DNA of 62,036 nt, counting the filler, from Kipferlia bialata (taxonomy: Eukaryota): NCBI GenBank assembly GCA_003568945.1. It is 4 parts of 4 records of this genome, joined end to end, with 100 filler letters (N's around TTAATTAATTAA, not from the genome) between each part and the next. Parts side by side here need not be neighbours in the genome. Positions count along the whole stretch, not along the records: positions 45,017 to 62,036 come from BDIP01000554.1; 3 more parts are not named here. One strand, 5' to 3'. The notes below the pieces were generated by a model, which saw nothing but the letters and a program-made list of their open reading frames with translations, was not told where the DNA came from and searched no databases. The translations under genes and the position numbers were made by a program. Positions 46,404 to 52,443 of the stretch are shown piece by piece (position 1 is the first letter of the stretch; every line of letters begins with the position of its first letter).

Positions 46404-49400
46404 CTACTCTTCGTATACTCCACCATGGACCTCCTCCATATGGGCATAGACTGCGCCCATCTCCTGGCTCTCAAACCCACACACCCAGCACCAGTGCCTG
46501 CCACAGAGGCATGTCATGTGATTGCAGCCCTGGGTTAGAGTGTCGATATGCTATACAATGACGTCTCAGAGTATATGGCTCAAAGAGTGTACAGTGTACA
46601 CTGTACACCACTTACCGTCAACTTCTCTACTGCTACTCCGCAGTGTGGGCAGGTCCGTCTTCCCCCAGGTAGGATACGGAACCTGTTGAGCTCCTCGTTG
46701 ACTGCGGCCTCTACGGCTCCTATGCGTCTGTCCCCTGTGCCAAGGGTGATGCCCTGGTATGTTAGTCAGAAGAGACGATACAGCATTAGTGATTAGTGGT
46801 GAGGACCAAATAATACTATGTAGATACTCACCTCGTTATCGAAGGCGTCTCTAAATGCCACTTCTAGCTGTCCTGGTCTTCCGATGCAACAGGACGGGAT
46901 GGAGACAGTACGAGTGCAAGCATGTGCTGTGGGTAGTCCAAGTCTCTCGTGTGTATCCTCTACCTCTAGCACTATCTGCTGCTGAGGGAGGACTATGGAG
47001 TGGATGGCGAACATTAGCAGGCGGCGCAGGATCGTAAGGTCCTGCCTCAACACCTGCTCTTCCACAAACACCCTGAAGGCGGCTTCTAGCTCAGGGTGGT
47101 CAATCTGGAAACACCTCAGGTACTCGTCTGCAGTGAAGGGTGGAAATCCAACCGACAGGTGGATGAACTGAGAGAGTGTGAGGGCATCCAGAGTAGAGGC
47201 CCAGTCAGGGTGGATCGAGTTGAACCCTCTACGCATTTCCACCACGGCCTCAAGTACGAGACGCACGTACCCAGTCTCAAACTCACTAGCAAACATGTCA
47301 ACATTGTCACGTGTGACAAGCTCATCACGTTTGCACCCAGGAATGGAGGAGAAGTCGACCTGAAGTGTGTCAGGAGTCCACACTAGACACACTAGACAAC
47401 AGGATAATGGCCAATTTGTATATCACTTACCTCCCCAGGGTTCTCAATTAACGTTATGAGGTTCTTGCGCTGCTGGGGGAAGGTAGCAGCGAAGAGGTGG
47501 GACACAAGTGACTTGTTCCTAAGTATCCGGTTGGGATTGGACTGAGGGTCAGAATTGATCATCCGAAGAGATATCCATAGGGTAAACGCAAGATGGAAGT
47601 CACATACATGGAGACCAGCTAGAACCAGCTTTCCGAAGAGGCCGTGCTCGAGTGGGTTCTCTATGCAGAAAAGAGCAGTGAGACGCCCTAGGCATGCATA
47701 GTAGGATGCATATGTGGCCACTGTCTCTAGGTCTCCTTGCTCCCTGGCCTCCTACTGTGAGTGTGGTAGTGTTCAGGAGGCTATATATGGCAAGATGGAA
47801 TACAACGTGTACATACCTGCATGAGGCTGCATGCATATAGGGTTGGACACACTGGAAACTCGGCATCACACAGAGGGTCAAGGATGGTGACCTGGTGCTC
47901 TCCTATGGAGATTGGCTGGCACAGCTGACGCAGTATCATCCTCAGCACACTAGTCTCTGCCTCTTGCTCTGTGTCATCAGCAGCCACTGGCATCAGCTGG
48001 GTATACCCGCCCAGTGAGGGCTCCTCTGGCAGTGCACAATGTACTAAGAGAGCCTCGACGCTACATGCAACCTCGGGAGCAGTATCCTTCTCAATTTGTA
48101 GTCCTGACAATCACAAGAGGAATGAATATGAATCCAGAGAGATGTACAACATTCTACGAATAGATACCTGTCCAGAGTTCCTGTAGCAGTTGCCTGTACT
48201 TCAACTCAGCGCTTGCTGATGGGGCGGAGGGGGTTAGGTCTCTGGCAAAGAGACCCTTGTTGAGGAGAGCGTATGCACTTGATCTCTCTGCTTTAGGACC
48301 GAAGCATGTCTGATGTTACACTCCTAAAGACGCTCAAAGAATGACTTATAACTGTATAGTATCACGCATTATTTATACCTTGATGATGCTGACCTCCACA
48401 CTGGACAGGTCGTCTGTGCTGAAATCTGGATCTGCATTGATAAGGTTGTCCCCGTCATACAGCCACACTACAACCTGGGTGTTTAAATCCCTTGACACAC
48501 ATATGGAGTGGCAAGGGGTGCAATCGCCACAGTACAACAGCTTTGTCTATCGATATATCGTACTTTACCCATAGAGTATATGTCCGACAGGTGGTCGAAC
48601 TGCCTCTTGGGAGATTCGGTCGGGTTGTCATTGTGGTGGAGTGTAGGGACGGAGTGGTGGACGTCAATGTATGCAGTTGTGCCGAGGCCCTGGCGATGAG
48701 GCAAGTGGCACCCGTATCCGTAATGTAATTGTGTCAATACATGTAGTGTATATTGAGGGATCCACTAAGTTCATTACGTATTGTGTGTATCATTGGCATG
48801 CCACCACCATACCCTTGTCTGTGCCTGTCTGATTGTGGCTATGAAGTCATCCTCACTCTTGGAGATGTCGAAGTCAGTGAGCGCCACTCCTACCGGTGAG
48901 ACCCCAAGTACGGTAATGGAAACGATGACGTATTCCAGATCTTTCAAGACTTGAAGAAATCAAGTAGTCGTTATACCTGTGACAGTGCCATCTTCCTCAT
49001 GGTTGATGAGGATATTCTGGGGCTTGATGTCCTTGTGAACTATGTGGCATGTGTCCAGCGAGACTAGACCGAGTAGCACCTGTGATAAGTGTGTGTACTT
49101 GCAACGTCAGCCGGGATAGGGTCATTCATGTAATGAGATTACAAGGATTGCAACACAAGAGAATGGGCATGGAACTTTACAAAAGCAATATACACTGTAT
49201 ATTATATACAGTGCACATCATGCGTTGTGTATAGGTGTAATGTCACTACATTGTTGACCCACCTCGTGCATGATGTGTCTCTTGACCTCCACAGAGGGGT
49301 TGAAGGACTCGATGTAACTGGCGAGGTCACAGCTGTATCTTGTGTCAACTAAGGCACTATTTGTACTTAATACCAGTGTCTTCTCAATCTGAAATGTACT

Positions 49401-52400
49401 GACAAATACGTTATATGTGACAACGACGACAAACCTCTCCAGTATGACGTGACAGAGATTGTCCTCCACCATGAAACCGAGGCACTGCACTATGTTTGGG
49501 GCTTGCACCCTGCTGAACACAGAGAGCTCTCTCCTCACACTGTTGAGCTGGGCATCATTGCTGTGAGGTGAGAAGTCTGTGTCAAGAGTGTAATTGACAA
49601 TACAAGTCTGTACAGGTAAGCTCGACGTACTCCAAGTGGTACTCCTTCAGGACAACAGGACGGTGGGACACAGGGTGGATTCCTGAGTCAGCTATCCCTG
49701 AGATGTAACTAGTCAATGCAGTATCCAGTCAAAGCTATTTCACATTGTCAGTGACAGCTGCAACTGCACCCCCACCTGAGTAGAGCTTGACGTGGGATGC
49801 AGACTCGATGTCTTGGAGGCGGAACTCCCTTACACTCCTGTCACAGAAGAGGGCTCGGTACTGCTGCAGCGTGTGCCTTGCCTCACTGCCGTCTAACGGG
49901 TCTGTCTTAACTGCAGTGTGGAGGGCCTCTGGGGATAAGGTCGTTCAGGGAGACACTATCTTATAACATGTATAATAATCACACCTGCTGCCGTGGGGTA
50001 GCTGGTGTAATGCTCCAGTCGCTCCACCATAGAGCGTCTCTCTGCCTGCCTGGCTACCAGTGCAGAAAGATCGGAGTCCACCTGATGGGCAGTAGTGCAG
50101 TGGTCATTGACTACTGGTCAAACAGCCAAATACAGCCACTGGAGAAGTCTTACCTGCACAAGCTTTCTACGGGCCTTCTTTCTCTCACCCTCTGTGCCAA
50201 ACTCTCTGTTTACATGGAATACAATCTTCTCTCTGGTATCAACTAGTCTTATGTGGCAAAGAGTCGACACAAAGAGAGGAATCCCTTGTAGCGGAATACA
50301 CTATCGACTGAATCTGAAGCATCAGATTTCTGGACCATACCTGCGCTGCAAGAGCTCTGTCTCTCTCCCAACTGGAACCGGTGTGTGTGTCCCTAGCCAA
50401 TGAATGATGGATGTGATGTCCTGCTGTAAGCGACGGTTCGCTTGACACTAAGCAGACAGAAACACAATATGTTTCGCAACTACAAGTTTCATAGTCTATG
50501 TTACTAACGCTTGTACTACTGTGATGCTACTTTTGCAGCATACGCACCTCTATGTTCCTTGCCACTCTGTGAAGGCGTTACATCATTCCTCGTGCTTGCT
50601 TGGCTAGTGTATCAAATGCTCCAATGTCATGAGTCTCCACTCCCTGGAGGGCTGTCTTAGAACTTGAGATCTGGCGTTAGGCGAAAAGGTCCATATTGTA
50701 GGTAGATAGTGTAGGATACACAAAGAGCAGAACGATGAAGATACGTACTGTATATAAAACGTGTCTAATACCTCTCTTTCAACCGCAATGAGGGTTCTTG
50801 CAGCTCTGACTGTGTCACAGAGCATGTGGTTGTACTCCTGGGCTGTGAAGTACTTGTCGACGTCTCTGAGAGAGAGAGGAAAGGTCAGTGGGCAACGGTG
50901 CAATGTGGTATCCCCGTAGCTCAGTCAGCAATGTGTCTGCAGTGTCTAAGAGGGACAGGCTCTCATCGAGAGGGAGGCTGCCGTCGAAGGAGATTCCCCT
51001 CATCTTCTCCAGCTGCTGAGTGAAGCTGGTCATCATGTTGGTGAGGGTGGCTAGTAGGCTGTCACAAGGGCTGGCCTTGAGAGAACTCTCAGGGTGGTCA
51101 CTGAGGAACTGTCTGATTGTCCTAGCACCACTGGCTAGATCACTAGCAACAGGAATGTATACCGCCAGGTTCTCAACTGTTGCAACCAAGCAGGGGCCAT
51201 CAAGGGCAGAGATACTCTCCTAGTACTAAGTGAAGATAAAGGCTCACACATATAGGGTTCAAGCGTAGTAGTCGTGGACATTACAGAGCATATATATGCA
51301 TCAAACCTTCAGGTGTGCGAGAGTCACCAGCTGTTCCTCGTCATATTGGTGCATGTCTGCAATGCACACCGGCTGCTGCTGAGATGTAAGTGAGCACTTA
51401 AGAGGACACAGAGTGTCCTTGCTCCCACTCTCCTCAAATGCAGTCCCCTTCAAGGGTGCAGCCTCCCTCCGGTGAAGTGTCTCTTCGAGAGAGTGACAAA
51501 GACGCAGGTGCATTGGCGTACTGTCTAGGACACACTGCGAGAGTGCACAGCACAGACAAGAGACGTCATCACCTCCCCAGGCCTTGTAACAAGTGGCGTG
51601 AACCTGGATATCAGATAAGACTGAGACTGATTAGAAGTGATATCCTTACCTCTTGACCGTGGTTACAACAGGTGCATAATCCGTTGGCCGCTGCAGTAGA
51701 AGCCGGGGGCACCTTTGCAGTACAGAGTAAGCACCTGGGCTGGCGTGGTGTTGCAGAGTATGCAAGCCACCTCAATACATTAGTGTCGATCTTGTGGAAC
51801 CAAGGAACACCAGTGTCAGAGTGAGCCTTTACCCTGTGGGCAGTCTGGTACTGGATCCCTTCACACACGGCTTCACTAAATACTACACGTGAGATAAGAG
51901 TCATGTGTTATAACTTGGGAAACAATTGATTCCAGGATATGGACCACCATCTGTTGTACCTGTTAGGGTGCAAGAACACTCACGAATGACTAGAAACCGG
52001 GGCACAAATGGTGTTGTGCACTCGCTGCAGTGACACAGTGGGCTAACTGTGGTGGAATCAAAGACACCGAACCCACATAAGTGCGCCACCAGCTTATCCA
52101 CCATGGAACAGTGGGGGTTGTGACATACTCCCAGAAGGCTCATACCCTGAGCTATGGGTGGAATCTCCCCCAACTCCTCTAGGTTCATGGCAGCAGATGA
52201 AGATCCATCGTTGTTGGTGGTTTGTGGCATGTAACCCCAAACACCACCGAGGGCCAGGAACTTCGAGATGTCCTCGTGGTGCTTGATAACATGGCCGTTG
52301 AAATAGACCTTCACTGTAGACGGATCACCCTCACCGGCAATGAGGGACTTGAGGACAGAGAGGGTCTTGACGGTACTGGGTATCATCAGGGGCTGTCCAC

Positions 52401-52443
52401 CGGGGTGGTCCAGGTTGTAGACAGACAGGTACTGCATGGACAT
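46404..52443 (-). CDS. Multidomain protein: Ubl - Cys-rich - RING - helical - protein kinase - HECT - RBR-type RING2/Rcat
   Basis: Ubl (TLSVLKSLIA...VKVYFNGHVI); Cys-rich GVCHNPHC...CHCSEC; RING CLLC...CNH...HATC...CLCC; kinase VVLKEY, RRELSV, HIVHKDIKPQNILI, ALTDFDISK, GTTAYID, SDIYSMG; HECT VTRDNVDMF...MRRGF...LRRLLMF...LPTAHACTRTV; Rcat CPHCGVAVEKLT|GCNHMTCLCGRHWCWVCG; stop TAG 46404-46406. Confidence 0.8.

What the first reader, a model, noticed from the sequence alone, without database searches (positions are those of the whole stretch)
46404..52443. Ubl-RING-kinase-HECT-Rcat fusion: possible dual-catalytic-cysteine E3 coupled to a kinase
The HECT C-lobe keeps its catalytic Cys (LPTAHACTRTV; consensus LP.AHTC). 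It is not C-terminal as in canonical HECT E3s but splices in frame (FDNE|GITLG) to an Ariadne/Parkin-type RING2 with its catalytic motif (CPHC...EKLT|GCNHMTC.C...WCW.C). Upstream lie a kinase, a RING and a Ubl. A HECT-to-Rcat ubiquitin relay under kinase control is conceivable (inference). I know of no characterised protein with this architecture.
Basis: partly seen in the sequence, partly recalled or inferred. Interest (0 to 1): 0.85.

Follow-up and report, generated by a model that had tools for sequence, protein, structure and literature searches.

The report
Kinase-HECT-Rcat ligase family; this copy broken
This gene, broken here by a frameshift and a stop codon, is one copy of a protist gene family that joins a kinase and two normally separate ubiquitin-attaching modules (HECT and Rcat) in one protein; both keep their catalytic cysteine, so intact copies likely pass ubiquitin from one module to the other, which is untested.

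Summary
The kinase-HECT-Rcat core is real; the five-domain protein is not encoded intact. The gene (Kipferlia bialata KIPB_003050) fits a 23-exon, all GT-AG model, but a frameshift at 50869-50878 and an in-frame TAA at 50580 separate the Ubl/RING part from the kinase. The HECT is divergent (Pfam 20 bits, cutoff 23.9) but complete by fold (Foldseek E 4e-10, Z 16.6 over both lobes). The Rcat cysteine aligns with the catalytic one of RNF216 (via a paralogue). The copy belongs to a family of 20 Kipferlia gene models, some fragments, with varied N-termini (LRR, Kelch, ankyrin-like). One Barthelona protein has the same kinase-HECT-Rcat order. Both cysteines are among 29 invariant columns of 392 in 10 full-length members. 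The HECT -4 Phe is missing in 14 of 14 Kipferlia rows and no RING1-IBR precedes Rcat. The most likely mechanism is an E2 to HECT to Rcat to substrate relay (about 0.45, untested). Kinase-HECT fusions are known (Leishmania TKUL); I found no HECT-Rcat fusion in print.

The parts
46404..52443 (-). 23-exon gene, 22 GT-AG introns of 46-183 nt, 1379 codons end to end with two breaks
52225..52443 (-). Ubiquitin-like domain (aa 1-73), probable
   Evidence: Atlas features 0.94 to clusters where 27-47% of members carry PF00240; no Pfam hit; AF2 model unusable, pLDDT 39
51758..52131 (-). Cys-rich, probably Zn-binding domain that follows the Ubl (aa 105-203); no Pfam name
   Evidence: exon 1 as a whole resembles rotifer-rich clusters of hypothetical proteins, 160-248 aa; the domain boundary is my reading of the sequence
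51547..51733 (-). C4HC3 RING of RING-CH/RINGv spacing, split by intron 2
   Evidence: relaxed RINGv pattern matches aa 212-258; 2 of 100000 shuffles match; strict pattern fails by one residue; PHD, RING-HC and RING-H2 patterns do not match (patterns recalled)
51307..51411 (-). Possible degenerate half U-box
   Evidence: resemblance recalled only; no Pfam or PDB support
49930..51219 (-). Helical/coiled-coil middle domain shared with paralogues
   Evidence: colinear with P0002-P0004, scores 420-503; tblastn
50869..50878 (-). Frameshift in a (CT)5 run; the as-is product stops at 50817-50815 after 472 aa
   Evidence: tblastn frame changes from -3 to -1 while paralogues are continuous
50578..50580 (-). 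In-frame TAA in exon 5, Leu in three paralogues
50028..50030 (-). ATG used by the public 808-aa model KIPB_003050 (P0001), an internal Met by homology
48247..49824 (-). Protein kinase domain: VLK Lys, RREL Glu, HKD, DFD; Gly-rich loop and APE motif degenerate
   Evidence: PF00069 61.8 bits, cutoff 31.7; motifs
46744..48219 (-). Divergent but complete HECT domain (N- and C-lobe); catalytic Cys 46918-46916; no -4 Phe
46754..46831 (-). 78-nt phase-0 intron joining HECT to the linker and Rcat
   Evidence: same junction in P0001; colinear in paralogues
46652..46743 (-). Flexible linker and conserved helix (ELNRFRIL) before Rcat
   Evidence: pLDDT under 50 at model residues 378-403, helix 385-397; conservation
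46404..46651 (-). Rcat (RING2) domain, catalytic Cys 46526-46524, His 46520-46518, second Zn site of C2H2 type; TAG stop 46406-46404

Best explanation
The window holds a broken copy of a Kipferlia-expanded gene family whose intact members join a variable N-terminal module, a coiled-coil, a kinase, a complete HECT domain and a lone Rcat, and likely work as a two-cysteine ubiquitin relay. Shown: the domain order, the HECT fold, conservation of both cysteines, the absence of RING1-IBR and of the -4 Phe, and the two breaks in this copy. Inferred: the HECT N-lobe takes the E2-docking role of the missing RING1; ubiquitin would pass from E2 to the HECT Cys, then to the Rcat Cys on its flexible tether, then to substrate. 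The kinase likely acts as a switch, as in TKUL, and the N-terminal module likely picks the trigger or target. This copy most likely no longer makes the full-length protein (about 0.85); whether its kinase-HECT-Rcat half is still made is open.
For: HECT fold over model residues 1-376: Foldseek best E 4.1e-10, all 39 rows shown are HECT; VIA Z 16.6, rmsd 9.9, 321 aligned; paralogue P0016 passes the Pfam cutoff at 37.5 bits. HECT Cys kept in 14 of 16 rows, Rcat Cys in 13 of 14, both in 12 of 14; both lie among 29 invariant columns of 392 in 10 full-length members, Barthelona included. P0017 lost both. The Rcat Cys aligns with the RNF216 position that is Ala in two of three PDB constructs. No aromatic residue follows the last HECT helix in 14 of 14 Kipferlia rows; a cited paper title states that the -4 Phe is required for substrate ubiquitination (reference line only). 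In RBRs RING1 recruits the E2 (PMC3940038 passages); no Pfam RING family appears in the 12 family proteins of 500 aa or more with a kinase-like domain that were scanned. Intramolecular Cys-to-Cys transfer exists in MYCBP2 (PMC11727022 passages). One contig of run X2 (RNA by guess) matches P0004/P0159 at the kinase loop and runs 1777 nt further, against 1683 nt to the Rcat motif and 1800 nt to the stop in the spliced model; its interior was not seen.
Against: No activity data. An acidic residue lies 2-4 places after the hydrophobic tail residue in most Kipferlia rows (12 of 14 flagged), so the HECT tail may still support transfer to lysine with Leu, Val or Ile in place of Phe. Barthelona has a Phe near that place (alignment uncertain). 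P0019 keeps the Rcat Cys without the HECT Cys, and P0003 and P0039 keep the HECT Cys with no Rcat in the model. The Rcat His is kept in only 8 of 14 rows (Arg in 4, as in RNF216). HECT identity to solved HECTs is 11-17%, and E2 binding was not tested. P0016 has a dead kinase but both cysteines, so kinase activity is not required in every member. Barthelona and Kipferlia Rcats differ in their second Zn site and share about 20% identity, so two separate fusions are possible.
Confidence: 0.45

Rival explanations
1. Parallel wiring: E2~Ub docked on the HECT N-lobe discharges onto either cysteine, and each then modifies substrate on its own, for example with different linkages or acceptors.
For: Also explains conservation of both cysteines. 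An acidic residue near the HECT tail is kept in most Kipferlia rows; an acidic side chain can serve aminolysis (PMC13196369 passage). P0019 keeps only the Rcat Cys. ZNFX1 is a precedent for parallel wiring (abstract).
Against: The -4 Phe is absent in 14 of 14 Kipferlia rows and the C-terminus is extended by about 80 residues.
Confidence: 0.27
2. Only the HECT is catalytic; the Rcat-like domain is a Zn-binding module for substrate, ubiquitin or autoinhibition.
For: The triad His is missing in 6 of 14 rows. There is no RING1 to load Rcat. Pfam scores it as generic IBR.
Against: The Cys at the catalytic position is not a Zn ligand (established RBR knowledge), yet it is kept in 13 of 14 rows and in Barthelona. 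GCNR occurs in RNF216 itself.
Confidence: 0.15
3. Only Rcat is catalytic; the HECT serves as an E2 dock and its Cys is incidental.
For: The HECT is highly divergent and lacks the -4 Phe; P0019 lost the HECT Cys and kept the Rcat Cys.
Against: The HECT Cys is invariant in 10 of 10 full-length members across two genera.
Confidence: 0.1
4. On this copy only: it still makes a full-length Ubl-RING-kinase-HECT-Rcat protein, through cryptic splicing round both breaks or from an intact allele not in the assembly.
For: GT/GC-AG pairs exist that would restore frame at both sites. The remaining 860 or so codons are open. Private substitutions are not clearly raised (26 of 177 against 8-25 in five others; 10 of 85 against 2-14). 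Contigs drop rare variants.
Against: A rescue needs two weak donors (the three GT candidates that keep an open frame start gttgcc, gtccct or gtggag) or skipping of exon 5, and it would delete residues that align with paralogues. The Gly of the HECT FxxGS motif, kept in 14 of 14 other rows, is His here. TAA is not Gln here: 37 CAA/CAG against one internal TAA in 922 codons.
Confidence: 0.12

Closest known systems
HECT E3 ligases (NEDD4/Rsp5, HUWE1, E6AP)
   Same: Bilobal fold and C-lobe catalytic Cys in the LPxxHxC motif.
   Different: Not C-terminal; no -4 Phe; 11-17% identity; followed by about 80 residues holding a second catalytic domain.
RBR E3 ligases (RNF216, ARIH1, Parkin); fungal RBRs with a C2H2 second site
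   Same: Linker helix plus Rcat with the catalytic Cys in register.
   Different: No RING1 and no IBR; a HECT sits in their place.
MYCBP2 RING-Cys-Relay E3
   Same: Functional model: ubiquitin passes between two cysteines of one chain (PMC11727022 passages).
   Different: Unrelated domains (RING plus tandem-cysteine domain, recalled); the relay is shown there and only inferred here.
Leishmania TKUL (HECT12); Naegleria and Ectocarpus GL-Bikonta HECTs
   Same: Kinase and HECT in one chain; in TKUL autophosphorylation is needed for ligase activity (passages in PMC13196369, 10.64898/2026.05.08.723729, PMC3673628).
   Different: No Rcat is mentioned in the passages seen; homology to this family was not tested; the TKUL paper itself was not available.
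CUL9 and ZNFX1 (two E3 modes in one protein)
   Same: Two ubiquitin-transfer modules in one polypeptide (CUL9: search listing; ZNFX1: abstract).
   Different: Neither pairs a HECT with an Rcat.

Membership tests
HECT E3 | Bilobal HECT fold | tested here: met
   AF2 pLDDT 76.8; Foldseek E 4.1e-10; Z 16.6, rmsd 9.9, 321 aligned; Atlas structure hits all HECT clusters
HECT E3 | Pfam PF00632 above cutoff | tested here: inconclusive
   20.2 bits for P0001 against 23.9; P0003 24.2 and P0016 37.5 pass
HECT E3 | Catalytic Cys in the C-lobe | tested here: met
   present; 14 of 16 rows
HECT E3 | HECT at the C-terminus with -4 Phe | tested here: not met
   about 80 further residues; no aromatic in 14 of 14 Kipferlia rows
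HECT E3 | E2 binding and thioester formation | not testable with these tools
   needs biochemistry
RBR E3 | Rcat with Zn ligands and catalytic Cys | tested here: met
   matches Parkin, ARIH1, RNF216; 13 of 14 rows
RBR E3 | RING1 and IBR directly upstream of Rcat | tested here: not met
   a HECT occupies that place; one IBR-type stretch only
RBR E3 | Cys-His-acid triad | tested here: inconclusive
   His in 8 of 14, Arg in 4; third residue not assigned
RING-Cys-Relay (MYCBP2) | Intramolecular transfer between two cysteines | not testable with these tools
   inferred only
RING-Cys-Relay (MYCBP2) | RING plus tandem-cysteine domain | tested here: not met
   the two cysteines lie in a HECT and an Rcat
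Active protein kinase | beta3 Lys, alphaC Glu, catalytic Asp, Mg-binding Asp | tested here: met
   Gly-rich loop and APE degenerate across the family; P0016 is a pseudokinase
RING-CH (RINGv) | C4HC3 spacing | tested here: inconclusive
   relaxed pattern matches, strict one fails by one residue; no profile hit on the separate exons
Ubiquitin-like domain | beta-grasp fold | tested here: inconclusive
   Atlas 0.94; no Pfam or meaningful PDB hit; poor AF2 model

The most novel reading that the evidence does not exclude
Metamonads carry an undescribed class of E3 ligase in which a HECT replaces RING1-IBR and hands ubiquitin to an RBR-type Rcat in the same chain (E1-E2-HECT-Rcat, a four-step thioester cascade), gated by a built-in kinase and expanded in Kipferlia with interchangeable sensor domains, possibly as a defence system.
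Probability: 0.42. Interest if true: 0.88.

Novelty: new variant of a known kind. Interest (0 to 1): 0.72.

Why it matters
HECT and RBR ligases are treated as separate solutions to the same job, each with one catalytic cysteine. A natural chain that keeps both, without RING1 and without the HECT tail Phe, makes it directly testable whether a HECT can act as an E2-like donor for an Rcat. It would be a second, unrelated cysteine relay after MYCBP2. Intact paralogues and a Barthelona homologue are available for in vitro tests. The copy in this window is a poor test object because it is broken.

Tried and rejected
No whole genome was held. No RNA holder was listed for this stretch, and run X2 gave no long contig on this gene; this is not evidence on expression. 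Complex prediction of HECT with Rcat gave no verdict (score 0.00, alignment not used). Search with exon 1 among proteins of 283-2000 aa found nothing (weak). Its single-sequence AF2 model was unusable and was not fold-searched. Metagenome and viral contig scans with the HECT-Rcat alignment found no relative. The viral fold search gave separate HECT and RBR proteins with weaker scores than PDB, so no sign of viral origin. Sequence search of the HECT exon against PDB gave 0 hits. PDB hits for exon 3 and the Ubl were designed repeat proteins, rejected as artefacts. The HECT-Rcat tree was unresolved, with Barthelona on a saturated branch. P0148 and P0024 matched through Rcat-like parts only and were dropped. 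TAA read as Gln was rejected. A 31-nt intron at the frameshift was judged unlikely: shortest real intron 46 nt, donor gttgcc, 55% GC like exons, and it removes aligned residues. Relaxed selection on this copy was not shown. Two look-ups of earlier scan findings returned nothing. The wide VIA search was not run.
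Full report
Verdict. The finding is real in its core and wrong in one important detail. A kinase, a complete HECT domain and a lone Rcat are encoded in frame, and this order defines a gene family found in two metamonad genera. The Ubl and RING named in the title are cut off from that core in this copy by two breaks.

Identity and gene model. The HECT exon is 100% identical to Kipferlia bialata KIPB_003050 (P0001, 808 aa). Using paralogues as a guide, I built a 23-exon model from 52443 to 46404 on the minus strand with 22 GT-AG introns of 46-183 nt. 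The CDS is 4141 nt, one more than a multiple of three. Read from the ATG it stops at 50817 after 472 aa. Read from the 3' end it is open back to a (CT)5 run at 50869-50878, apart from one TAA at 50580. Paralogues P0002-P0004 are continuous across both sites and have Leu at the stop. Exon 5 alone scores above 500 of 500 shuffles against P0003, above 491 against P0004, and not above chance against P0002. The public model starts at an internal Met at 50030, after both breaks, and keeps one 96-nt intron that paralogues lack. DNA run X1 agrees with the window at both breaks but may be its source.

Domains. Kinase: PF00069 61.8 bits with Lys, Glu, HKD and DFD; the Gly-rich loop and APE motif are degenerate across the family. 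HECT: Pfam 20.2 bits, below the 23.9 cutoff, but the AF2 model of HECT-Rcat (7 sequences, pLDDT 76.8) matches solved HECTs. Foldseek gave 98 matches at E up to 0.001, and all 39 rows shown are HECT. VIA gave Z 16.6, rmsd 9.9, 321 aligned, over residues 1-375. The high rmsd fits a different lobe angle (inference). Rcat: matches Parkin, ARIH1 and RNF216 (E 7e-5 to 2e-4). In the alignment of paralogue P0016 to RNF216 the Cys falls on the residue that is Ala in two of three constructs, which I read as the catalytic mutant. N-terminus: exon 1 resembles Ubl-containing clusters common in rotifers (0.94); a C4HC3 RING of RING-CH spacing follows; a U-box-like stretch is a recalled resemblance only.

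Family. Word searches found 7 Kipferlia proteins. The HMMER search of 1.84 billion representatives gave 14 hits at E up to 1e-30 and 2132 at E up to 0.001, of which I saw the best 150. Of 158 stored proteins, 21 matched in the HECT part: 19 Kipferlia, one Barthelona, and one unnamed IBR protein that I dropped. With P0159, which contains P0004, there are 20 Kipferlia models, several of them fragments. N-termini vary: LRR (P0014), Kelch (P0015, P0016, P0022), weak ankyrin (P0013), Ubl-RING (this copy only). Broken or degenerate copies are common: P0017, P0019, and the neighbours KIPB_000236/000237. Barthelona sp. PCE PCE1_002215 (1397 aa) aligns with the family over 590 columns from kinase to Rcat (probability 99.7) and over HECT-Rcat alone (97.9, E 3.8e-13), with both cysteines in register. 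Barthelona is basal to Fornicata (passage). Its Rcat has a different second Zn site, so a swap or a second fusion is possible.

Conservation. HECT Cys in 14 of 16 rows, Rcat Cys in 13 of 14, both in 12 of 14. In 10 full-length members 29 of 392 ungapped columns are invariant, and both cysteines are among them. The Rcat His is kept in 8 of 14, Arg in 4. No aromatic residue follows the last HECT helix in 14 of 14 Kipferlia rows; an acidic residue lies close behind in 12 of 14; Barthelona shows a Phe in an uncertain alignment. This copy alone has His for the Gly of the FxxGS motif, but its total of private changes is not clearly raised.

Transcript evidence. Run X2 is RNA by guess; it shows spliced joints for the upstream neighbour. 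One 5176-nt contig matches at the kinase loop, and its loose end, translated by hand, gives 10 residues identical to P0004/P0159. It extends 1777 nt past the loop, against 1683 nt to the Rcat motif and 1800 nt to the stop in the spliced model. This fits one mRNA spanning kinase, HECT and Rcat for that paralogue, but I did not see the interior of the contig.

Mechanism. An Rcat needs an E2~Ub donor, which RING1 recruits in RBRs. Here the only candidate E2 dock in the conserved core is the HECT N-lobe. A HECT needs its C-terminal tail to discharge onto lysine; here the tail has no Phe and continues into a flexible linker, a helix and Rcat. A HECT Cys that is conserved but poorly equipped to discharge, next to an Rcat Cys with no loader, is most simply read as a relay (0.45). 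Parallel use of both cysteines is the main rival (0.27), then HECT only (0.15) and Rcat only (0.10). All of these are inference. The kinase as a switch rests on analogy with TKUL and is weakened by the pseudokinase in P0016. A defence role is suggested only by the pattern of expansion, swapped N-termini and frequent decay.

Literature. Ten searches were run. Those aimed at HECT with IBR/Rcat and at Kipferlia or Barthelona ubiquitin listed no paper whose title or abstract start describes a HECT-Rcat fusion. I saw passages of PMC3673628, PMC11727022, PMC13196369, PMC3940038, PMC5874029, 10.64898/2026.05.08.723729 and 10.1101/2025.10.20.683495; the abstract of 10.1101/2025.09.05.674436; the listing of PMC11257990. 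The TKUL paper and the -4 Phe paper were seen only as reference lines. The library lacks most subscription journals and no supplements were read.

Scores. Novelty: new variant of a known kind (a cysteine-dependent E3 that fails a defining feature of both HECT and RBR). Interest 0.72; 0.88 if the relay is shown.

Noticed in passing
window 52983-53905 (-): Upstream neighbour with two introns shown spliced in run X2 (joints 53125/53388 and 53500/53852, contig depth 649); its contig ends about 540 bp before this gene's ATG. Product not identified.
   Followed up: partly
window 45656-45902 (-): Downstream gene starts with a signal-peptide-like hydrophobic stretch; no Pfam hit for that ORF.
   Followed up: no
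window 9687-10343 (-): Memo-like protein exon, PF01875, E 8e-09.
   Followed up: no
window 51758-52131 (-): Unnamed Cys-rich domain after the Ubl; exon 1 resembles clusters of up to 1269 hypothetical proteins, mostly rotifer where known, with no Pfam family.
   Followed up: partly
P0159 (KIPB_003875) and P0004 (KIPB_007001): Identical over 1168 aa on two contigs. P0159 begins with what looks like the start of a second kinase, and the matching X2 contig has 3356 nt upstream of the kinase loop against 1866 nt in the model, so the model is probably incomplete.
   Followed up: partly
runs X1 and X2, loose ends at window 46530 and 47467: Hand translations resemble family members but match none of P0001-P0007, so further paralogues probably exist, one on an X2 contig of depth 499.
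   Followed up: no
P0024 (JGI/IMG, 1216 aa): Unrelated protein ending in three tandem Rcat-like repeats after a RING, with GFHH or GCLH in place of GCNH.
   Followed up: no
P0016 (KIPB_001096): Kelch, pseudokinase, HECT, Rcat: kinase motifs lost while both cysteines are kept.
   Followed up: partly
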